The notes below the pieces were generated by a model. That model did no database searches. It was not told where the DNA came from and saw nothing but the letters and a program-made list of their open reading frames with translations. Below, piece by piece: positions 1 to 61,008 of a DNA stretch of 64,000 nt. Source of the DNA: an uncultured bacterium (GTDB taxonomy: Bacteria; Planctomycetota; UBA8742; UBA2392); the NCBI GenBank assembly GCA_938014885.1, contig CALLQI010000011.1, positions 51,344 to 115,343 of the forward strand, given 5' to 3'. Each line of letters begins with the position of its first letter. Position 1 is the first letter of the stretch. Both the position numbers and the translations under genes were made by a program.

Positions 1-3000
1 TCCAGGCGCACGCAGTCGGCGCCTGCCGTGACGTCGCTGGTCTGGATCGAGCCAATGCCGTCATTGATGCGCAGGCCGTTGCCGGCAGCAGACAGCGTGC
101 AAGCCGTCAGCGTCAGCGTAGAGGTCGGGCCGATCGACTCGGCGGCGTCGCCGGCGCTTGAGTCGACGGTCGTGCCACCGCTCACGTGCAGCAGGGCAGC
201 GGGTCCGGAAGCGTCTGTCTCCGCGCGCAGGGCGCGTGTTGCTCCGGCGTAGCTGCCGTTGCTGACGTTCGCGTGAACCAGGTTGGTCGGGGCACCACCG
301 CCGATGTCGGCGCAGCGCACCAACAGGGCCGTCGTGCAACTGGTCGGGCCTGCGGAGCCTATAGAGACGTTTATCAGGTCGATGATGGAGTCATTGGAGG
401 CAGGACCCTGAAGCAAGTCCGAGCTCTCTAACAGGATACCGACGTTCGCGCCGTCAACACTGCCGCCTGAAACATTCAGGTTTGAGGTCTCGATGTCCCA
501 GAAGTACATGCCACGGTCGAAAGTGCCGCCATTTGCGGAGAGCACGTTGCCGGTGAGCTGAACGTCCATGTCGTTGTAGATGCCCTGCAGGGTGATGCCA
601 ACGCCACCGCTGCCGGTCGCGGCGATGGTGTTGTTGCTGACTACGATGGGCGAAATGCTTGTCAGGTCGAGCGCCACGATCTCGATAGCCACGGAGTTGG
701 CATTCACGTCGATGCTGTTGTTCGAGATGTTTGTGGGGGCTAGACGGTCATTACTGAAGTTCGCGACCTGGATGCCGATGGCGCCGGGGAACGTGAGGAT
801 GCGGTTACCGGTGATGTCCAGGAAGGCGTCATCCTCACAACGCACCGCGCTCAGGTCGCAGTTGGCGAACAGGCTGTTGCTCAAGGTGCCGACTGTGGCA
901 CCAAAACTGTTGGCTACCGCTACGCCACACTCGGCGAAGTTCTCGAATACGCAGTTCGTGACCAGCAGGCCAACGACATCGATCGTGTCGTTGTTCACGC
1001 CGCTGCGCGCATCGCGACCGGTGCCGAACAGCGGCCTGTCACCTTCGAAGGCGAAACCATCAATGGAGACGTCGTCGGAAACAGTGAACAGGTCGTCGCT
1101 CGCGGGGGATGCCCCGGTGGCGACCACGATCGTCTCGTTGGCGGGAACCAGCGGCAGGCGGCCCGCGCCCACGTTGCCGAACTGAGCGCCCCGCATGGTC
1201 AGCGGGCGATACACGTCAACCAGCTCGATGAACGTGCCGACGTCAACTTCAAGCGTGTCATTGTTGTTAGCCTCGTCCACACCACGCTGGATGCTGCCGC
1301 TGTTCTGGGTCACGAACACGCGGCCCGATTCAATGCGTACGAAACCGCGCGTGGCGTCGTCAATCGCGTGGGTCATGCGGTTCTCGACCTCGAAACCCGC
1401 GAAGGGGCTGCCGCTGACGCGCGGCAGGGTCAGGTCGAACTGGAACGCGTTTTCGTACCAATCGTTACCCGTTGCATCGACATCGGCCGTGCCCGGGAAC
1501 GCGGTGAAATAGCCGCCGCCGGTAGTGCGAATGATGAAGGTGTTAGCCGCGGTGCCGCTGAGGTCAAGACTGCCGGCCTGGAACACGAAGCACTCAAAAT
1601 TGCCCGAGTCGCTCTCGCGAACAGTTGTACCGGACAAAGATGCAGAGCCGCCCAGGATGTCGATCGTCACGTCAGCGCCCACCTGGTTGATGTCGCTGTT
1701 GTCCAGGATCACCACCGCGCCGGTGTCGATGACGACGGCGCGCGCGGCGGCATTCTGCGTGACAGTCAGGCCATCAATACTGACGTTCGTGTCCAAGTAC
1801 AGCGCTGTCTGCGGCGTCTGCTGGTCAAGGGTGCCGCCCTGCACGATAACCGTGCCGCTGTTGACCCGCAGGGCCGAGGCGCCGTTGCCGGTCAGCGTGG
1901 CGCCGGCTGTCAGGTCGAGGGTAACGTCGCGGGTGATGATCGCGCTGCCGTAGGTGCCGCCTGCAACGATCACCGTGCCGCCGTCCGCCACGTGGTCCAA
2001 ACCGGCCTGCACGGTGTCGAAGGCGTCGATGCCGTAGCGATGCGGTGCCAGGGGCGACGGGGCATTCGGGTCGTCGCCGTAGTTGAGCGCCGAGAACGCC
2101 AAGTCAACGTAAACCGTCTGCTGCCTGACCGCGATGATCAGCAGCGCCGGCGGCGACGAAGTGTCCGCACCGCCGTTGGCAGTGCCGCCGTCGTCCGACA
2201 GCGTCACGTCGTACACGTAGATGCCATTCGAGCCAACGGGATCGATCGTGAATGTCAGGTCGCCGGTGGTTTCGTCAATGTCCGGCGCGGCCGTGAAGTT
2301 CACGGTACCCACCGACTGCGCAGGCAGCTGGGTCAGGTTGAACGTCAACACCTGGCCGCTCTCGTCCGCGGGGCCCTTGCTGATGGCCGTGGCCCATGCC
2401 AGGTGGGTCTGTGGTCCAGCCGTGGGCGCCAACGGAGTCAGGTTCACGCCCGGCGTGAAGCTGGGCGCGTCATTGACCGCAGTTACATCAACGCTGACCA
2501 GCACGGGGCTGGCCGAGGTCTCACTGGGTAGGGGGGTACCGTCGTCAAAGCATTCCACGCTGAAGGCCGCAAGTGCGCTTCCGTTGGCATCCGCTGCCGG
2601 GGTCCAGCGCAGGGTGTCGGCGCTGGTGACGGTCTGCGGCAGAACGACCGCTGCAAAGACGCTCGTTGTGCCTACGTCGATCAGCAGCGTGCCGCTGCTG
2701 ACGGCCGTGACGCGGAAGCCATCCACGCTACCGTCAATGTCCGAAGCGCTGGTCGTGGTGACCAGGTCGCCAAACGTGATGTCGATGGCGGTATCTTCGT
2801 TGGTGGCGCTTGCCAGCGTACCGGCTGACAGAGTCGGCGCGTCATTGACGGCGTTGACGTCAACGCTGATCAGCACAGCGCCGGCAGAGGTCTGGCTGGG
2901 GGCCGGGGTGCCGTTGTCGAAGCACTCGACGCTGAAGGCTGCAAGCGCGCTGCCGTTGGCGTTGGACGCCGGGGTCCAGCGCAGGATGTCAGCGCTGGTG

Positions 3001-5629: not shown

Positions 5630-5762
5630 GCGTGGCCGCAGTCTACCAACGGGCGTCGGGTGCAAAAGCGTTCGCGCAGGGCCGGGAATTGCGCAGGGCC
5701 GATGCCCCGGGAGGGAATCGGCCCTGATGTCGCGGCGCGTGGGGTCGCCGCTCAATGGCTGT

Positions 5763-6746
5763 CTACTTGAAGTAGCTTGAGGCCTTGATTGCTTCCGCCA
5801 ATTCCTTGGCTTTTTCTGCCGCCCGGGTGCCCGTGTTTTTCTCGTAGAACTTGCCCAAGGCTGATGCCTTGGCGTCTTTGCCCTTCACCTTCTTGTTGGC
5901 GGCAAGGGTCTTGGCCAATGCCTCTTCAGCCTTCATCTCTTTCTTCACGTCGGCGTCCTTTTGCATTTCCTTTGAGTCCGCGTCGGCCTTGGTGCCTTCT
6001 TCACTGCCCTTGAAGCGCGCGGCGATGCGGGCGTAGAAGGCGGCTGCATCGGTAAAGCGCTTTTCGTCGCGGGCCTTGGCGGCCTCATCATTCCACTTCT
6101 TGGCCAGCGCGTTGCAGCGCTCGACGATGTACTTGGCGTCTTCGTCGGCCTCGTTGGCGGCAAGTGCCTCATTGGCGAGCTGGCGGGCCTTGGTGTAGTC
6201 GCCCTTGCCGAACGCTTCGGCGGCCTTCTTGGCGCTTTCGCCGACTTCGGCCTTGCCGAGCCCGGGGTAGGCGACCTTGGCCAGCGATTCTTCGATGAAC
6301 TTTTCGTACTCGCCGTTGCCCTGGTACACGCAGCGGCCAAAGCTGTTGATCACGTACACGATCGGCATGCTCTTGGTGTCGTAGCCCGCCAGAGTGCTTT
6401 CCGAAGCGGCCACGAAGGGGACCTTCCAGCCCCACTCGCCGACAAAGGCTTCCATCTCAAGGGTGCTCATGCCTTCGCCTTCCACGGCGAAGAAGTGCAC
6501 GCCCTTGTCGCGGTACTTTTCCCACAGTTCCTGAAAGTGCGGCAACTGCCGCAGGCAGGGGGCTCAGTTGGGGCCCCAGGTCTTCATTACAATGATCTCG
6601 CCCGCCAGATCGGCCTTTGCGGTCGGGCCGTACTGGTTGACGATGCCCTTCATGTCGAAGTCGGGCGCGTCCTGGCCCGCAATTTTCTGCGCGCTGAGTG
6701 CGCTGCCGGCCAAGGCCAGCGTCATTAGCAATGCGAAGCGGAACAT
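5763..6746 (-). CDS. Exported TlpA/ResA-like thioredoxin-fold oxidoreductase with an in-frame UGA (6564-6566) at the first Cys of CxxC (U-A-P-C). It is a candidate selenoprotein. The C-terminus has a Lys/Ala/Glu-rich helical extension.
   Basis: ORFs 6564..6746 and 5763..6545 share one frame and are split only by the TGA. The junction reads ...IIVMKTWGPN-U-APCLRQLPHFQELWEKYRDKGVHFFAV.... ATG 6746 is preceded by AAGGAGAG. The N-terminus MFRFALLMTLALAGSALSAQ is a signal peptide. Confidence 0.7.
6530..6555 (-). promoter_or_regulatory. SECIS-like hairpin downstream of UGA 6564-6566.
   Basis: The mRNA folds as CCUG-CGGC-(AGUU)-GCCG-[CACUUU]-CAGG. The apical loop begins 16 nt after the UGA and has G as its second base. 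Confidence 0.4.
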
Positions 6747-15474: not shown

Positions 15475-16527
15475 ATGAGAACTGCCGCTTTTGCTGCGCT
15501 GCTTCTGTTGCTCTGTGTGGATGCCGGTGCCCAGCGCCGTCAGGGCGGAAGCAGCCCGTTCACCGAGTTCCACAAGAAGTCTGCGCTGGCCAACGGGGCG
15601 GCCGCACCCGCGCTGCTGGCCCAGGACACCGATGGCAAACTGGTTGACCTGCGCGACTATCTGGGTCAATGGGTGTTCATCGAGTTCGGCAGCTACACGT
15701 GACCGCCCTGTGTGGCCCATTTCGGTGAAATGGAGAAGTTCGAAAAAGCCCACGGCGCGCAAGTCGCCTGCCTGTTCTTCTACACCAAAGAAGCCCACCC
15801 CGATGACGGCCCGGAAGACCGCAAAGACGCCGGCAGCACAGGCGGCTGGCGCATGAAGAACAACAAGATCCAGATTGACAAGCACACCAAGTACGCGGAT
15901 CGCCTGGATGCCGCCAAAGACCTGCGCAAGGCCGGCAAAGAAAAGTGGCGCGTGCTGGTCGATGACATGAAAGACACCAACCACGCGGCCTGGGGCAACC
16001 TGCCCAACATGGCGTTCCTGGTGGACCCGCAAGGGCGCATCCACCACAAATGGAGCTGGGTCGCCAGCAGCACAGGCAAGTCCAAGCGCAGCGGCGACGA
16101 CGGCACCAGCGACCTGTACACGCTGCTCAAGGCCGCCGGCGAGCTTGCGCCCTACACCGTGGCCGACGACCCGCAACTGCCGCTGCGCGACACGGTCGCC
16201 GGTGAATGGCTGCGCTACGGCGACACCACGGTCAAGTTCGCGCCGGCCGGCGAAGGCAAAGTGAAGCGCGACGACTCCGTGATTGAGCTGGCCCCGTTCA
16301 AAGCACCCGCAAAGCCAACCAAGGCCACACGCAAGGACTTCAAGTTGGGAAAGCACGAGCTGCCCTGCGTGGTGACTCAGACTGAAGAGGGCGAAATCTG
16401 GGTCTGCACCCGGTTGCCCGGCGACGGCGTCGTCAAGGTCGTCAAAGACGGCACGACGCTGCGCGAGCTGACCGACGCGGGCTTCACCGAAGGCAAGTCA
16501 TGCCTGGCCGAGTACAAGCCCGAGTGA
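15475..16527 (+). CDS. Exported deiodinase-like thioredoxin-fold protein with an in-frame UGA (15700-15702) in FGSYT-U-PPC. It is a candidate selenoprotein. An extra C-terminal domain of about 150 aa follows.
   Basis: ORFs 15475..15702 and 15712..16527 share a frame and are separated by one TGA. The junction reads ...GQWVFIEFGSYT-U-PPCVAHFGEMEKFEKAHG.... The signal peptide is MRTAAFAALLLLLCVDAGAQ, with GAGGGGA upstream of the ATG. Confidence 0.72.
15717..15733 (+). promoter_or_regulatory. SECIS-like hairpin CCAUUUC-(GGU)-GAAAUGG downstream of UGA 15700-15702.
   Basis: Perfect 7-bp stem with a GGU loop. The loop starts 21 nt after the UGA. Confidence 0.5.
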
Positions 16528-57511: not shown

Positions 57512-57760
57512 TCATTCGCCGTCATTGCGCACTGAGTTGGTCGGGCACTGGCTAGCGGCGTCTTCGGCTTCCTGCACCTCCTGCGCTGTGGCCGGCTGGC
57601 GATAGGCCAATGAGTGCGTGGCGTCGTCCGACTCGCGGAACACGCTGGGCGCGATGGCAGGGCACAGCGCGCAATTGATGCAGGTGGTGTCGATGTAGTA
57701 CTTGCCTGGGACGTTGTCTGCGAAGGCCTCGGCGCGGGCGGTCTGCTTGGATTCCGACAT
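57512..57760 (-). CDS. Small single-cluster ferredoxin (82 aa).
   Basis: ...KYYIDTTCINCALCPAIAPSVF...AASQCPTNSV has the pattern CxxCxxC(P)...C(P). GGAG lies upstream of the ATG. Confidence 0.85.
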   Translation of the reverse strand: MSESKQTARAEAFADNVPGKYYIDTTCINCALCPAIAPSVFRESDDATHSLAYRQPATAQEVQEAEDAASQCPTNSVRNDGE

Positions 57761-57956: not shown

Positions 57957-58187
57957 TCAGCCGTCGCTGCCAATGGCCTGCACCGGGCACTGTGCGGCCG
58001 CGTCTTCGCACTGCGTCTTTTCTTCTTCACTGTCAGGTTGCTTGTAGACGACGTCGTGCGTGCCGTCTTCGCTTTCGCGGAAGTTGTTGGGTGCAAGCTG
58101 GGGGCACAGGCCGCAGAAAATGCAGCTTTTGTCGACGTACCAGGCGCCTGCGACGTTGTCTTCCCAGCGTTCATTTACATCCGGCAT
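57957..58187 (-). CDS. Small single-cluster ferredoxin (76 aa), a paralogue of 57512..57760.
   Basis: MPDVNERWEDNVAGAWYVDKSCIFCGLCPQLAPNNF...AAAQCPVQAI. I chose ATG 58187, which has GGAGAG 6 nt upstream. Confidence 0.85.
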   Translation of the reverse strand: MPDVNERWEDNVAGAWYVDKSCIFCGLCPQLAPNNFRESEDGTHDVVYKQPDSEEEKTQCEDAAAQCPVQAIGSDG

Positions 58188-58293
58188 GACACTCTCCATG
58201 ATTGGCCAGCGCGCGGAGCATACATCAGGTTGCCGCAGGATAAAGCGGGAAGATATACGCTCGTTATACTCGTTCCCACCACAGGAGAACGCC

Positions 58294-58632
58294 ATGGTCC
58301 GTGAGATCACCACTGAGGCCCTGAAACAGGCCCTTGATGCCGGCAAAGTCGCCGGTTTCTACGACAATCGCGGCCCCGGAAGTTTCGGCGCGCGGCACAT
58401 CACCGGCGCCACGCTGCTGCCGGTGCCGGACGCCGCAGCAGGCAAAGGTCTGCCTGCCGACAAGGCCGCGATGCTGGTGTTTTACTGAGCCGGCCGTGGT
58501 TGAGATTCCTCCACCAAGGCGGCCCGTGCGGTCGCAGCCCTTGGATACACCAATGTGTGGGATTACCGCGGCGGCGTGCCCGAATGGGTTGAAGCCGGAT
58601 TGCCGGTTGAGGGCACGATGGTCAGCGCCTGA
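58294..58632 (+). CDS. Single-domain rhodanese-like sulfurtransferase with two in-frame UGA codons (58486-88 and 58501-03) in the active-site loop. It is a candidate two-Sec selenoprotein.
   Basis: ATG 58294 has AGGAG upstream. Reading through gives ...ADKAAMLVFY-U-AGRG-U-DSSTKAARAVAALGYTNVWDYRGGVPEWVEAGLPVEGTMVSA-stop. The sequence after the UGAs is the conserved C-terminal half of a rhodanese domain in the same frame. Confidence 0.7.
58514..58544 (+). promoter_or_regulatory. SECIS-like hairpin downstream of the two rhodanese UGAs.
   Basis: CCAAGG-CGGCC-(CGUGC)-GGUCG-[CAGC]-CCUUGG. The loop starts 21 nt after the second UGA and 36 nt after the first. Confidence 0.45.
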
Positions 58633-58709
58633 TGGCATGACCTGAGATTTCAGGCACCAAGCGCAATTCTATGGCGTATGCTTTTCGCCGTGAGGCGAGG
58701 AGTATCCGT

Positions 58710-59900
58710 ATGCGCGCTTGGCTGCCTGTGTTGCTGATGGTCGGATTGCTCGGGTGTTCGCCGGAAGCCGGGCCGTCCAACGCCGAGACATTGAACAGCG
58801 GCCGTCCGAACCTGTTCGGCAACGGTGCCGCAAAGAAGCCGTCCCCCGCATCGGACGTTCAGCCTGAATCCGATGCAGGCGCGCAGCCCACCGGCGCGCC
58901 ACACCCGACCCGCGTCATCGGCAGCCCTGCCGGCAGCGCAGGCGAAGTCCCACTGATTCCAACAGGCCGCTGGACCGACCTGAAGCCGTGCACGCCACTG
59001 CTTGAGCTCAAGCGCGACCAGCACGGCGCGTGGGCCTGGCACCACGGCGACAAAACGCTCGATGCGGCCAGCCGTGACGCCGAGAAGGCGCTGGATGGCT
59101 TCGCCAAGCACAAGCACCACGGCGCAGGCTGGCAGGGCATGGCGCCAAACGGCGTCAGCCGCAACCTTGCGGTGGTGCTGGTCGATGCCGAAGCGCCGGC
59201 GCGCCTGGTGTGCTGGTTTATGGAGCGCACGATGGCGGCGCAGATCGGGCAGGTCGCGGTCGGCCTGCGCGGCATCGCGGCCGCACCACGCGACACGCAT
59301 AAGTGCGCGCAGGCGGACACACTGGGCGCGGATTACCTGGTGTACACGGCACCGGTGGATGAAGGCCTGCACTCGGCGCCTTCGATACCCAAGGAGACGT
59401 GCTGGCTGGCAATTGGCTGGTCTGACTCCGATCGGACGTTCGACTTCACGCCAAAAATCGACGCACGTGGCAACAAGCTGGTGCCGTCGGTTCCCGGCAG
59501 CGTCGCTCAGTACCACCCGGGCTCTCCCGCAAAGCCCGCCGACGCTGCGGCCGCTTGCCAGTTGCGGGACAAGTCTGTCTCAACACTCGCGGATGCGCTC
59601 CATGATGTCATCACAAGATTTGGCACAAGCATCGAGCGCCTGGAATACGCACCTGCCTTGCGACCGGCGAATAGTTCAGTTCCGTGGCTTGCGCTTGAGC
59701 TTGCGTGGCGGGCCTGCGAAGAAACCAGGCGTCGCATGTATGCCGCTGGTGCAACGACAACCGTCGTATCGCATCCGTGGGAGAACCAGATCCCCGAACC
59801 GCCGTCGCCGAAACAGCCACCCGAGATGGAGGTCGAGTTCCCGCGCGATGAACCAGCAAACGAAAACCCGACCGAAGACGAACGAATCGTTGAAGACTGA
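58710..59900 (+). CDS. Lipoprotein (396 aa) of unknown function, ending in a Pro/Glu-rich EVEFPRD motif.
   Basis: I chose ATG 58710, with GAGGCGAGGAG upstream. MRAWLPVLLMVGLLGC is a lipobox. The C-terminus reads ...IPEPPSPKQPPEMEVEFPRDEPANENPTEDERIVED. Confidence 0.8.
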   Translation: MRAWLPVLLMVGLLGCSPEAGPSNAETLNSGRPNLFGNGAAKKPSPASDVQPESDAGAQPTGAPHPTRVIGSPAGSAGEVPLIPTGRWTDLKPCTPLLELKRDQHGAWAWHHGDKTLDAASRDAEKALDGFAKHKHHGAGWQGMAPNGVSRNLAVVLVDAEAPARLVCWFMERTMAAQIGQVAVGLRGIAAAPRDTHKCAQADTLGADYLVYTAPVDEGLHSAPSIPKETCWLAIGWSDSDRTFDFTPKIDARGNKLVPSVPGSVAQYHPGSPAKPADAAAACQLRDKSVSTLADALHDVITRFGTSIERLEYAPALRPANSSVPWLALELAWRACEETRRRMYAAGATTTVVSHPWENQIPEPPSPKQPPEMEVEFPRDEPANENPTEDERIVED

Positions 59901-59952
59901 ATTCGCATCAGACAAGGCTGACTTTGCCCTCGTGAACACTGGAGAAAGATTG

Positions 59953-61008
59953 ATGAAGAAACTCGCCGTACTGACCTTGCTGCTGCTGGCCGCATGCTCG
60001 CAGAACGCGGGCAACAACACGAACTCGCCGTCCAACAGCCTGACGCAGGGCCGGCCGGACATCTTCGGCAAGAAGTCCGACCTGCAAAAACCCGCCGGTG
60101 AAGGCATCAAGCTGCACCCGAGCTGGTTCGTGGTAAGCACCGGCGAGCAGACCGCCGACCAGGTCCGCTACACGATGAAGGGCGTCCCCAGCAGCGTCAG
60201 CGATGTCCAAAAGGCGATGACCGAGTACGCGGGCTCAAAGGCCGACGGCCTGCCGGGCGCCAACGCCGAAGGCATCAGCGATAACCCGGTGGTGCTGCGC
60301 ATGCGGCCGAGCGCCCCCGCCCAGCAGGCGATGGCGTTCATCGAGATGATGGTGCACGCCAAGATCGCGCCGTTTTACTTTGTGCTTGAGGGCGGCACCG
60401 AACGCATCTTCAAACTGCGCCTGCCCGTGGATGGCGGACTGGAAATCTACCCCGAACCGCCGCCGCCGGAGCAGCCAAGGGAAGAGGAAGTTGAGTTCCC
60501 GCGCGATGACCCGGGCACCGCTGACCCCACCACCGACGAAGACATCACCGAGGAGCCTGACACTGATGACGATCGCAGCCCGGATCGGCCCGACCTTCAA
60601 TGGCTGCAGAGCGGCGCACCTCGCGTGCCGCGAGAGGTCTGCACCATCTCGGCGGGGCTCAGCGACAACGTGGTCAGCTTTGTGATTGCGCTGGACGCGC
60701 GCGGCCGCATGCCCGCGGGCAGCGTTACCCGCACCGAGCTTGTGAAAGACGACACCGTGCAGGACGCGGCCTACAACAATGCGCGTCGAGACCTGGCCGA
60801 CAAACTGGTGGACCTGCACAAAAAGGTGCCGTTTGAAGTCGTCGAAGTGATGTGTGGCCACTCCGGGACCAAAGCGTTGCGGTGCGTCGAACTGGTGTTG
60901 ATGATCGACGCGGCACGGGTCGCGGGCAACATCGTGCACCCGGACAAGACCGACCCGTGGGAGATCCGGTTCAAGTTCGGAGACGTGCTTAGACGTTACG
61001 ACGACTGA
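59953..61008 (+). CDS. Lipoprotein (351 aa), a partial paralogue of 58710..59900.
   Basis: I chose ATG 59953. MKKLAVLTLLLLAAC is a lipobox. It shares the GRP(N/D)(L/I)FG and PEPPxPxQPxExEVEFPRDxP motifs with the upstream gene. The first half of ORF 59002..61008 is a shadow of the upstream gene. Confidence 0.8.
   Translation: MKKLAVLTLLLLAACSQNAGNNTNSPSNSLTQGRPDIFGKKSDLQKPAGEGIKLHPSWFVVSTGEQTADQVRYTMKGVPSSVSDVQKAMTEYAGSKADGLPGANAEGISDNPVVLRMRPSAPAQQAMAFIEMMVHAKIAPFYFVLEGGTERIFKLRLPVDGGLEIYPEPPPPEQPREEEVEFPRDDPGTADPTTDEDITEEPDTDDDRSPDRPDLQWLQSGAPRVPREVCTISAGLSDNVVSFVIALDARGRMPAGSVTRTELVKDDTVQDAAYNNARRDLADKLVDLHKKVPFEVVEVMCGHSGTKALRCVELVLMIDAARVAGNIVHPDKTDPWEIRFKFGDVLRRYDD

What the first reader, a model, noticed from the sequence alone, without database searches (positions are those of the whole stretch)
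58294..58632. Rhodanese domain with two in-frame UGA codons five residues apart in the active-site loop
After ...AAMLVFY the frame reads TGA GCC GGC CGT GGT TGA and then continues open as DSSTKAARAVAALGYTNVWDYRGGVPEWVEAGLPVEG until TGA 58630-32. The segment after the two UGAs is the conserved C-terminal helix-strand part of a rhodanese domain (...A...L...GY.NV..Y.GG...W...G.P.). The first UGA sits where the catalytic Cys follows the hydrophobic strand (VFY-C). The second closes the six-residue loop, giving U-A-G-R-G-U. Rhodanese-related selenoproteins with one Sec have been reported from metagenomes; a U-x4-U pair would allow a selenenyl-selenide or persulfide relay and is unusual. One hairpin (58514-58544, loop CGUGC) lies 21 nt from the second UGA and 36 nt from the first, so a single SECIS could serve both.
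Basis: partly seen in the sequence, partly recalled or inferred. Interest (0 to 1): 0.78.

Follow-up and report, generated by a model that had tools for sequence, protein, structure and literature searches.

The report
Stand-alone rhodanese with two selenocysteines
This small gene very probably makes a 112-residue rhodanese-type protein with two selenocysteines five residues apart in its active-site loop; it is a previously unannotated, single-domain Planctomycetota relative of the recently described double-selenocysteine protein TsoB.

Summary
Window 58294-58632 (+) is one 112-codon rhodanese reading frame with in-frame TGAs at 58486 and 58501.

Both TGAs are kept in all 22 distinct relatives. 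A DNA-pattern scan found the motif in 19 species-level genomes, all Planctomycetota MAGs. True terminators vary (TGA/TAG/TAA). Wider relatives carry C-x4-C or C-x4-U at the same two columns, never U-x4-C.

One RNA element is conserved in the Planctomycete family: the hairpin CGGCC-CGUGC-GGUCG (58520-58534). It lies 21 nt after UGA-2 and 36 nt after UGA-1. Its synonymous sites are invariant, and it shows compensatory changes in relatives.

The window holds two more probable selenoprotein genes, so the organism most likely decodes Sec.

The U-x4-U rhodanese loop is not unprecedented. It defines TsoB, a 572-aa rhodanese/DsbD fusion (Haft & Tolstoy 2025), which I found in about 110 Desulfobacterota and Nitrospirota genomes. 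This protein is not TsoB: 51 bits against a cutoff of 805, and no DsbD part. It is a separate clade, and it lacks TsoB's first hairpin.

Most likely function: a redox-active diselenol/diselenide pair. Public records truncate the gene to a 64-aa hypothetical protein.

Verdict: real, a new variant of a known kind, moderately interesting.

The parts
58294..58632 (+). Coding sequence of a 112-residue single-domain rhodanese-fold selenoprotein. It has no signal peptide. Sec is at residues 65 and 70.
   Evidence: The start at ATG 58294 agrees with the MV(R/K) start of 22 independently called homologues. After both TGAs, many codons keep an invariant amino acid while varying at synonymous sites, which shows purifying selection on the protein.
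58283..58288 (+). Shine-Dalgarno-like AGGAGA, 5 nt upstream of the ATG.
   Evidence: Read directly from the sequence.
58486..58488 (+). UGA-1, probable Sec65, at the canonical catalytic-Cys position of rhodanese.
   Evidence: TGA in 22/22 distinct family sequences. This column is Cys in all C-x4-C and C-x4-U relatives. It aligns with the catalytic Cys of 6mxv.
58501..58503 (+). UGA-2, probable Sec70, the second redox or resolving position.
   Evidence: TGA in 22/22 family sequences. The same column is TGA in several independent C-x4-U clades and Cys in C-x4-C relatives.
58519..58535 (+). Core SECIS-like hairpin (HP2): stem (G)CGGCC / GGUCG(C), apical loop CGUGC at 58525-58529. The loop is 21 nt 3' of UGA-2 and 36 nt 3' of UGA-1.
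   Evidence: Third codon positions of GCG GCC CGT GYG are invariant in 21/21 unique sequences, while neighbouring four-fold sites vary. The five core pairs form in 21-22 of 22 sequences. There is a G-C to C-G swap and a G-C/G-U change relative to C-x4-U relatives, and no shuffle out of 500 reached the observed covariation score. It is the only structure RNAalifold finds on 22 sequences. The homologous TsoB hairpin pairs in 109/109 sequences with clear compensatory changes. MFE is -8.5 kcal/mol.
58514..58544 (+). Extended form of the hairpin in this window, where the lower stem is CCAAGG/CCUUGG.
   Evidence: MFE -13.3 kcal/mol. The lower stem is not conserved in register in relatives.
58493..58520 (+). 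Window-specific imperfect hairpin that encloses UGA-2. Its apical loop AUUC (58505-58508) is 16 nt after UGA-1. It is a candidate separate signal for UGA-1, or it may be fortuitous.
   Evidence: RNAfold gives -13.9 kcal/mol for 58486-58521. About 12 of 22 relatives fold some hairpin here, but in different registers, and no stem is conserved. The loop has no G in its first two positions.
57957..58190 (-). Divergently transcribed single-cluster [4Fe-4S] ferredoxin. It is the conserved neighbour of the U-x4-U gene and has its own terminator at 57932-57908.
   Evidence: Pfam Fer4_13, E=1.3e-17. It is present upstream in every one of the 17 related loci that include upstream DNA, at 74-92% identity. 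Terminator-like site.

Best explanation
The gene encodes a cytoplasmic, single-domain rhodanese-fold protein in which both in-frame UGA codons are translated as selenocysteine. This gives the active-site loop Y-U-A-G-R-G-U. Recoding is directed by a SelB-binding stem-loop inside the coding sequence (58519-58535, loop CGUGC). That stem-loop is the only RNA structure conserved in the family. It sits at a normal distance from UGA-2 (21 nt) and at the far edge of the known range from UGA-1 (36 nt), so it most likely serves both codons. In the protein, Sec65 occupies the catalytic nucleophile position of rhodanese. Sec70, five residues on in the same enlarged loop, acts as its partner, so the pair cycles between a diselenol and an intraloop diselenide. 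That makes the protein a low-potential redox relay or reductase rather than a classical thiosulfate sulfurtransferase. Shown here: the gene, the conservation of both TGAs, the Cys/Sec pairing at both columns, purifying selection on the protein after the TGAs, and the conserved hairpin. Inferred: actual Sec insertion, use of one hairpin for both codons, the diselenide, and the redox role. The redox role rests on two observations. In TsoB the homologous U-x4-U rhodanese domain is fused to the N-terminus of a DsbD-type transmembrane plus thioredoxin module. In other relatives the C-x4-U domain is fused to a glutathione-peroxidase domain. The confidence of 0.8 applies to the core claim, a genuine double-Sec rhodanese selenoprotein. 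The single-SECIS part stands at roughly 0.55-0.6 and the diselenide-redox part at roughly 0.5.
For: The frame and Pfam match are. The 22 database homologues of 62-64 aa all end at ...MLVFY, which is truncation at UGA-1. Their DNA continues in frame with a second TGA and a conserved C-terminal half in 8 genome loci and 9 metagenome loci. A DNA-pattern scan found the motif in 19 species-level genomes, all Planctomycetota. Both TGAs are present in 22/22 distinct sequences. The family contains C-x4-C, C-x4-U and U-x4-U forms but no U-x4-C. On the hairpin: synonymous sites are invariant, covariation is seen, it is the only RNAalifold structure, and its TsoB homologue pairs in 109/109 sequences with G-C, A-U and C-G variants. 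The bSECIS rules are met: loop of 3-9 nt, stem of at least 4 bp, G in the first two loop positions, spacing of 16-37 nt and MFE of at most -7.5 kcal/mol (review PMC13188914; MFE). Two further probable selenoprotein genes lie in the same window: a FGSYT-U-PPC deiodinase-like gene and a TWGPN-U-APC ResA-like gene, each followed by a GU- or GG-loop hairpin 16-21 nt after its TGA. TGA is an ordinary stop in this genome, ending 6 of 26 Pfam-supported genes. Redox analogy: TsoB is rhodanese(U-x4-U) + DsbD TM + Trx CxxC, and L019/L100 are rhodanese(C-x4-U) + GPx.
Against: No Sec machinery (selA, selB, selD, tRNA-Sec) lies in the 64-kb window, and I could not inspect the rest of the genome. The hairpin is short and is not thermodynamically exceptional for this GC-rich sequence (z = -0.7 to -1.5). 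RNAalifold on the first 9 sequences did not pick it. A 36-nt spacing is longer than the 16-21 nt seen at the other candidate Sec codons of the same organism. TsoB keeps a separate hairpin for its first UGA, which suggests one hairpin may not suffice. There is no expression, proteomic or selenium-labelling evidence. The redox function rests on domain-fusion analogy only.
Confidence: 0.8

Rival explanations
1. Both UGAs are Sec, but each has its own signal. UGA-2 uses the conserved hairpin. UGA-1 uses a separate, rapidly evolving hairpin that encloses UGA-2 (58493-58520 in this window), as in TsoB.
For: TsoB has a well-kept first hairpin, GAGUC-CGNAGY-GACUC, with its loop 18 nt after UGA-1. It pairs in at least 102/109 sequences, its Val GUC third position is constrained, and three Nitrospirota carry a GTC/GAC to GTG/CAC double change. 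In this window a -13.9 kcal/mol hairpin puts a loop 16 nt after UGA-1. About 12 of 22 relatives fold some hairpin there, and in L005, L006 and L026 it has an 11-bp stem with loop CGCU at 17 nt.
Against: No stem in this region is conserved in register across the 22 sequences. The TsoB register pairs in only 0-6 of 22. Synonymous sites between UGA-1 and the conserved hairpin vary freely. The window's loop AUUC lacks the G required by the bSECIS model. About 10 relatives fold quite different structures.
Confidence: 0.3
2. The protein is a chalcogen carrier, a sulfur- or selenium-transferase. Sec65 would carry a persulfide- or perselenide-type adduct, and Sec70 would merely tune or release it. It would not be an electron-transfer (diselenide) protein.
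For: The rhodanese fold is present and U1 sits at the catalytic position. Single-Sec 'rhodanese-related sulfurtransferases' are known selenoproteins (review Table 1). Periplasmic multi-rhodanese relatives with a haem CxxCH motif (L073, L157) look like sulfur-metabolism proteins.
Against: The canonical CxxGxR(S/T) anion-binding loop is replaced, and the +5 Arg position is the second Sec. Fusions of the same subfamily are to DsbD/Trx and to GPx, which are dithiol-disulfide relay partners. The paired residue is strictly conserved across the whole C-x4-C subfamily.
Confidence: 0.3
3. The gene is a pseudogene, a sequencing artefact, or really ends at UGA-1 and gives a 64-residue product.
For: Public gene calls stop at UGA-1 and label the product a 64-aa hypothetical protein.
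Against: Both TGAs, their 4-codon spacing and the downstream frame are conserved in 22 distinct sequences at 60-97% identity from independent assemblies. Synonymous variation over invariant residues continues after the TGAs. Sixty-four residues is half a rhodanese fold. No plausible restart codon follows.
Confidence: 0.03
4. TGA is read as a standard amino acid in this organism (a reassigned genetic code) or by near-cognate suppression, not as Sec.
For: None specific.
Against: TGA terminates 6 of 26 Pfam-supported genes in the window. Long genes (H+-PPase, ClpB, UvrC) give full-length domain matches without internal TGAs. A coding-potential scan of the window flagged only three TGAs with coding-like sequence on both sides. 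One of these is the UxxC codon of the ResA-like gene; the other two were not followed up. The rhodanese and deiodinase-like TGAs were found by other routes, and all four candidate Sec codons align with Cys or known Sec positions.
Confidence: 0.03

Closest known systems
TsoB, rhodanese/DsbD fusion-like selenoprotein (NCBIfam NF045694; Haft & Tolstoy 2025, mSystems 10:e0141724, as listed in review PMC13188914 Table 1: 'UxxxxU, 2 Sec')
   Same: It has the same rhodanese subfamily domain and the same U-x4-U loop after ...VFY (TsoB: U-A-G-L-T/A-U). The hairpin over the A-A-R-x-A codons is homologous, 21 nt after UGA-2 and 36 nt after UGA-1. TsoB is the best NCBIfam hit for every family member.
   Different: TsoB is about 580 aa: membrane anchor + rhodanese + DsbD transmembrane domain + thioredoxin domain. 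It is extracytoplasmic and found in Desulfobacterota and Nitrospirota. This protein is 112 aa, has a single domain and no signal peptide, and is found in Planctomycetota. It scores 51.5 bits against a cutoff of 805. It forms a separate clade whose sisters are C-x4-U proteins, so its first Sec arose independently. It also lacks TsoB's conserved first hairpin.
Single-Sec rhodanese selenoproteins (review Table 1 forms 1-4: UxxS, UxxG, and CxU = NF041203 'rhodanese_LYCAU')
   Same: A rhodanese fold with Sec in or next to the active-site loop, and small stand-alone proteins of similar length (NF041203 profile is 126 aa).
   Different: They have one Sec only and different motif positions. The NF041203 score is 39.9 against a cutoff of 115.
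C-x4-C rhodanese-like proteins: BH2092 of Bacillus halodurans (PDB 3NHV, 3O3W) and the PQQ-associated CXXCW motif protein (TIGR03865)
   Same: Same subfamily and same two columns (BH2092: Y-C-W-G-P-A-C-N-G-A-T-K-A-A).
   Different: They have Cys at both positions and no recoding. Their function is not established. The TIGR03865 score is 35.4 against a cutoff of 128.
Stand-alone and fused C-x4-U rhodaneses found here (for example soil CASPT-U proteins, Myxococcales CANEH-U lipoproteins, Planctomycetia CMNEH-U-GPx fusions)
   Same: They are the closest relatives of the window protein and carry the same hairpin position after the TGA. A C-x4-U paralogue sits immediately upstream of the U-x4-U gene in two Planctomycetota MAGs.
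   Different: Only the second position is Sec. None reaches any NCBIfam cutoff either.
Eukaryotic selenoprotein L (UxxU diselenide). This comparison is from my own background knowledge and was not checked here.
   Same: Two nearby Sec residues proposed to form a diselenide.
   Different: It has a thioredoxin fold and a 3'-UTR SECIS that naturally serves several UGAs. The bacterial in-frame SECIS makes closely spaced UGAs mechanistically harder.

Membership tests
Rhodanese-like domain (Pfam PF00581) | HMM score at or above the gathering threshold over the whole domain | tested here: met
   50.6 bits against 22.2, covering residues 6-100 of 112 and profile positions 1-101 of 102.
Rhodanese-like domain (Pfam PF00581) | Catalytic Cys (here Sec) directly after the central beta-strand | tested here: met
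   U65 aligns with the Cys of YC(G)SGFRS in 6mxv and with the first Cys of BH2092.
Bacterial selenoprotein (comparative criteria summarised in PMC13188914) | In-frame TGA aligned with Cys in homologues (Cys/Sec pair) | tested here: met
   Both columns are Cys in C-x4-C relatives. The second column is Sec or Cys in many clades.
Bacterial selenoprotein (comparative criteria summarised in PMC13188914) | TGA-containing orthologues in other organisms, with a conserved downstream frame | tested here: met
   22 distinct sequences, plus a DNA-pattern scan that found the motif in 19 species-level genomes.
Bacterial selenoprotein (comparative criteria summarised in PMC13188914) | bSECIS: 3-9 nt loop, stem of at least 4 bp, G in the first two loop positions, 16-37 nt from the UGA, MFE of at most -7.5 kcal/mol | tested here: met
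   Loop CGUGC, 5-6 bp stem, spacing of 21 nt (UGA-2) and 36 nt (UGA-1), MFE of -8.5 and -13.3 kcal/mol. The bare 17-nt core is only -6.4 kcal/mol in L003. Rfam holds no matching model.
Bacterial selenoprotein (comparative criteria summarised in PMC13188914) | Sec machinery (selA, selB, selC, selD) in the same genome | not testable with these tools
   None is in the window or in the fetched loci. Indirect support comes from two other probable selenoprotein genes in the window and from published complete Sec machinery in other Planctomycetes (PMC4807772).
Bacterial selenoprotein (comparative criteria summarised in PMC13188914) | Selenium demonstrated in the protein | not testable with these tools
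   This needs 75Se labelling or mass spectrometry.
TsoB (NCBIfam NF045694) | Full-length HMM score of at least 805 bits | tested here: not met
   51.5 bits, and only profile positions 102-160 are matched. A genuine TsoB (L140) scores 1026.6 bits.
TsoB (NCBIfam NF045694) | DsbD-type transmembrane domain and C-terminal thioredoxin domain fused to the rhodanese domain | tested here: not met
   The ORF ends at 58632 after 112 codons. The next gene is an unrelated lipoprotein.
TsoB (NCBIfam NF045694) | U-x4-U in the rhodanese loop | tested here: met
   U-A-G-R-G-U here against U-A-G-L-T/A-U in TsoB.
rhodanese_LYCAU (NCBIfam NF041203) | HMM score of at least 115 bits and a C-x-U motif | tested here: not met
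   39.9 bits, and the motif is U-x4-U.

The most novel reading that the evidence does not exclude
In the Planctomycete stand-alone proteins a single 15-17-nt SECIS hairpin directs Sec insertion at two UGA codons 15 nt apart, with spacings of 21 and 36 nt. TsoB, by contrast, keeps one hairpin per UGA. This would be a natural case of one bacterial in-frame SECIS serving two codons, and it would imply a SelB/ribosome geometry far more tolerant of spacing than the E. coli paradigm. A secondary speculation is that the resulting very low-potential diselenide is serviced by the conserved, divergently transcribed ferredoxin.
Probability: 0.4. Interest if true: 0.7.

Novelty: new variant of a known kind. 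Interest (0 to 1): 0.55.

Why it matters
According to the 2026 review, only a small subset of the 119 listed prokaryotic selenoprotein families carry two or three Sec residues. A 112-residue soluble protein with a U-x4-U loop is a much more tractable model than the 580-residue membrane protein TsoB. It could be used to ask what a diselenide pair in a rhodanese loop does. Its gene is also a compact natural test of how far a bacterial SECIS can sit from the UGA it recodes.

The finding exposes an annotation gap. Public records call the gene a 64-aa hypothetical protein, and no NCBIfam model names either the U-x4-U or the related C-x4-U stand-alone proteins.

The family also shows a stepwise Cys-to-Sec path, C-x4-C to C-x4-U to U-x4-U. 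The final step appears to have been taken independently at least three times.

Tried and rejected
1. An Rfam scan of the whole window found only two tRNAs and no SECIS or tRNA-Sec model hit.

2. RNAalifold on the first 9 sequences gave a long-range structure without covariation and missed the local hairpin. With 22 sequences it returns only that hairpin.

3. A simple count of stems of at least 5 bp does not separate Sec-containing from Cys-only relatives well. In this GC-rich Ala-rich stretch, 15 of 63 C-x4-C sequences also have one. Thermodynamic z-scores are weak. The case for the SECIS therefore rests on synonymous-site invariance and covariation.

4. I searched the protein database with E. 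coli SelA in the hope of reaching planctomycete SelA. Only enterobacterial hits were listed. I found no way to inspect whole MAGs, so Sec machinery in the same genome is untested.

5. ARAGORN on 27 related loci found no tRNA-Sec.

6. The Haft & Tolstoy 2025 paper itself is not in the held library. TsoB facts come from the review table and from my own analysis of TsoB loci.

8. I tested the TsoB first-hairpin register on the Planctomycete sequences. It does not pair.

9. The deep-Sep and BSepDB papers mention no rhodanese or Planctomycete case.

Full report
**1. Observation**

Window 58294-58632 (+) translates as one frame of 112 codons: MVREITTEALKQALDAGKVAGFYDNRGPGSFGARHITGATLLPVPDAAAGKGLPADKAAMLVFY*AGRG*DSSTKAARAVAALGYTNVWDYRGGVPEWVEAGLPVEGTMVSA*. 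The internal stops are TGA at 58486-88 and 58501-03. An AGGAGA Shine-Dalgarno-like sequence precedes the ATG.

With U written as C, the product matches Pfam Rhodanese over residues 6-100 (50.6 bits against a gathering score of 22.2).

**2. Is it real?**

- A protein search returned 22 homologues of 62-64 aa, all ending ...MLVFY. These are gene calls truncated at the first TGA. Two are deposited as 'hypothetical protein' of Planctomycetes.
- Fetching their DNA changes the picture. In 8 Planctomycetota MAG loci and 9 metagenome contigs the frame continues through TGA, four codons, TGA, and then a conserved C-terminal half.
- The internal stops are always TGA, whereas the true terminators are TGA, TAG or TAA.
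- A DNA pattern for FY-TGA-xGxx-TGA-xxSTKAA found 19 species-level genomes, all Planctomycetota.
- Across 21-22 distinct sequences both TGAs are invariant. After them, many codons keep the amino acid while varying at the third position, which shows purifying selection on the protein.
- Pseudogene, sequencing error and a 64-aa product are therefore excluded for practical purposes.
- A reassigned code is also excluded. TGA ends 6 of 26 Pfam-supported genes here, and long genes give full-length domain matches.

**3. Cys/Sec pairs**

The wider family is a distinct rhodanese subfamily with two conserved residues...VFY-C-x4-C-.... Most members are C-x4-C. Examples are P0021 CANARC, P0023 CAGVHC, many metagenome loci, and the solved structure BH2092 (3NHV/3O3W) with YCWGPACNGATKAA.

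Several separate clades are C-x4-U (CANEH-U, CASPT-U, CGGET-U, CWDFT-U, CMNEK-U). No U-x4-C was seen. U65 aligns with the catalytic Cys of canonical rhodaneses. U70 lies in a short insertion that enlarges the loop.

**4. The recoding signal**

- In 21 unique family sequences the third positions of codons +11 to +14 after UGA-1 (GCG GCC CGT GYG) never vary. Four-fold sites on either side vary freely: Ala +7, Gly +19 and Val +40 show three or four different bases.
- These codons form CGGCC-CGUGC-GGUCG (58520-58534). The five core pairs form in 21-22 of 22 sequences.
- On an alignment with C-x4-U relatives, one pair switches G-C to C-G and another G-C to G-U. No shuffle out of 500 reaches the observed covariation score, and slid registers collapse.
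- RNAalifold on 22 sequences returns this hairpin and nothing else.
- The hairpin satisfies the published bSECIS rules for loop size, G in the first two loop positions, 16-37 nt spacing and MFE (review PMC13188914; MFE).
- It is small, however, and not thermodynamically unusual for this GC-rich sequence.

**5. Does the organism decode Sec?**

No selA, selB, selD or tRNA-Sec lies in the window, and I could not examine the rest of the genome. The window does contain two more genes with the hallmarks of known selenoprotein families:

- A secreted deiodinase-like protein (15475-16527, +). Its TGA is at 15700 in FGSYT-U-PPC, followed by a CCAUUUC-GGU-GAAAUGG hairpin with its loop 21 nt after the TGA.
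- A secreted ResA/TlpA-like redoxin (6746-5763, -). Its TGA is at 6566-6564 in TWGPN-U-APC, followed by UGCGGC-AGUU-GCCGCA with its loop 16 nt after the TGA.

Complete Sec machinery has been reported in other Planctomycetes (PMC4807772).

**6. What is already known**

[quoted passage not shown] The 2026 review of prokaryotic selenoproteomes lists TsoB as rhodanese form 5, motif UxxxxU with 2 Sec, from Haft & Tolstoy 2025. That paper is not in the held library.

A pattern scan for VFY-TGA-x4-TGA-x13-GYxN found at least 119 loci. About 110 of them encode ~580-aa proteins in Desulfobacterota and Nitrospirota, including Desulfacinum infernum DSM 9756 and the Olavius symbionts. One of these scores 1026.6 bits on the TsoB model. 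Its architecture is membrane anchor, rhodanese (U-A-G-L-T/A-U), DsbD transmembrane domain and thioredoxin CxxC.

So the U-x4-U rhodanese loop is published. The stand-alone Planctomycete protein is not TsoB, and no NCBIfam model in the release searched (20.0) scores it above cutoff.

**7. How it differs from TsoB**

- Architecture and location. It is 112 aa, has no signal peptide and has no DsbD or Trx parts.
- Descent. In a neighbour-joining tree of the domain, the Planctomycete U-x4-U clade is monophyletic. Its sisters are C-x4-U proteins. These include a tandem C-x4-U paralogue immediately upstream of the U-x4-U gene in two MAGs (L107, L108), whose hairpin GCCGCC-CGUGC-GGCGG has the same loop and a compensated stem. 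TsoB and a third U-x4-U protein (L157, a periplasmic haem-rhodanese of a Nitrospiraceae MAG) sit elsewhere in the tree. The tree is rough, but it suggests the first-position Sec arose at least three times, each time on a C-x4-U background.
- Recoding signals. TsoB carries two conserved hairpins. The first is GAGUC-CGNAGY-GACUC, with its loop 18 nt after UGA-1. It pairs in at least 102/109 sequences, has a constrained Val third position and shows a double change in Nitrospirota. The second is GCGGCC-CGKGU-GGCCGU, 21 nt after UGA-2. It pairs in 109/109 sequences, with G-C 72, A-U 31 and C-G 4 at one pair. The Planctomycete genes keep only the second. The TsoB register of the first pairs in 0-6 of 22. 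About half the sequences, this window included (58493-58520, -13.9 kcal/mol, loop AUUC), can fold some hairpin around UGA-2, but in differing registers and without conserved sites.

**8. Mechanism proposed**

Both UGAs are read as Sec. The conserved hairpin is the SECIS for UGA-2. For UGA-1 it is the most likely signal, at 36 nt and just inside the known range. The rival view is that UGA-1 relies on lineage-specific local hairpins.

In the protein, Sec65 is the nucleophile and Sec70 its partner, forming a reversible intraloop diselenide. The redox-relay reading rests on two fusions. In TsoB the same domain is fused to the N-terminus of a DsbD-type transmembrane plus thioredoxin module. From my background knowledge, that position corresponds to the redox-active DsbD-alpha domain, but I did not test this here. 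In L019 and L100 a C-x4-U domain is fused to a Cys-type glutathione peroxidase. A chalcogen-carrier role (persulfide or perselenide) remains a live alternative.

A single-cluster ferredoxin is the conserved divergent neighbour in all 17 loci that include upstream DNA. This may reflect function or merely shared ancestry of closely related genomes.

**9. Verdict**

It is not a new kind of thing, because TsoB (2025) already has the U-x4-U rhodanese loop. It is a distinct, apparently undescribed and mis-annotated variant. Its recoding arrangement makes the question of SECIS spacing directly testable.

Noticed in passing
window 15475-16527 (+), TGA at 15700-15702: Probable deiodinase-like selenoprotein. 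It has a signal peptide, the motif FGSYT-U-PPC, a Pfam T4_deiodinase hit on the part after the TGA, and the hairpin CCAUUUC-GGU-GAAAUGG with its loop 21 nt after the TGA.
   Followed up: partly
window 5763-6746 (-), TGA at 6566-6564: Probable ResA/TlpA-like thioredoxin-fold selenoprotein. It has a signal peptide and the motif TWGPN-U-APC (UxxC). Its C-terminal helical part matches the NCBIfam 'VPGUxxT family thioredoxin-like (seleno)protein type 1'. The hairpin UGCGGC-AGUU-GCCGCA has its loop 16 nt after the TGA.
   Followed up: partly
L107 ~1245-1584 (-) and L108 ~5731-6094 (+): In two Planctomycetota MAGs a C-x4-U paralogue (CTEPT-U / CTDPG-U, about 115 aa) lies immediately upstream of the U-x4-U gene on the same strand. 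Its hairpin GCCGCC-CGUGC-GGCGG has the same loop as the U-x4-U gene and a compensated stem. This is a natural one-UGA versus two-UGA comparison within one genome.
   Followed up: partly
L019 (Planctomycetia MAG) and L100 (metagenome): Secreted fusion of a C-x4-U rhodanese domain (CMNEH-U / CMNEK-U) to a Cys-type glutathione peroxidase domain (NCBIfam glutathione peroxidase, 1.2e-47). This points to a redox-partner role for the paired loop residues.
   Followed up: partly
L125-L237 (TsoB loci), positions relative to UGA-1: TsoB genes carry two tandem conserved hairpins, one per UGA. The first loop is 18 nt after UGA-1 and includes UGA-2 in its stem. The second loop is 21 nt after UGA-2. The second shows abundant compensatory changes (G-C 72, A-U 31, C-G 4 at one pair).
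   Followed up: yes
L157 (Nitrospiraceae UBA665 MAG): A third U-x4-U context: a roughly 236-aa secreted protein with a haem CxxCH motif followed by a rhodanese domain with the loop U-G-G-Y-H-U. It groups with the periplasmic multi-rhodanese C-x4-U proteins L073 and L090.
   Followed up: partly
L041, L044, L053, L055, L072, L085, L096 and others (soil metagenomes): Stand-alone ~110-aa C-x4-U rhodaneses (CASPT-U, CWDFT-U) that reach no NCBIfam cutoff. They do not show an obvious perfect hairpin at the usual position, so their SECIS may differ.
   Followed up: no
window 57512-57760 (-) and 57957-58190 (-): Two paralogous single-cluster ferredoxins sit between trmB and the rhodanese gene. The proximal one is more conserved (74-92% identity) than the rhodanese itself and has its own terminator at 57932-57908.
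   Followed up: partly
window 58671-59900 (+) and ~59950-61008 (+): Two downstream lipoprotein-like genes with no Pfam match. They share an acidic PE-rich segment (…EVEFPRD(D/E)P…) and are weakly conserved downstream of the rhodanese gene in some related loci.
   Followed up: no
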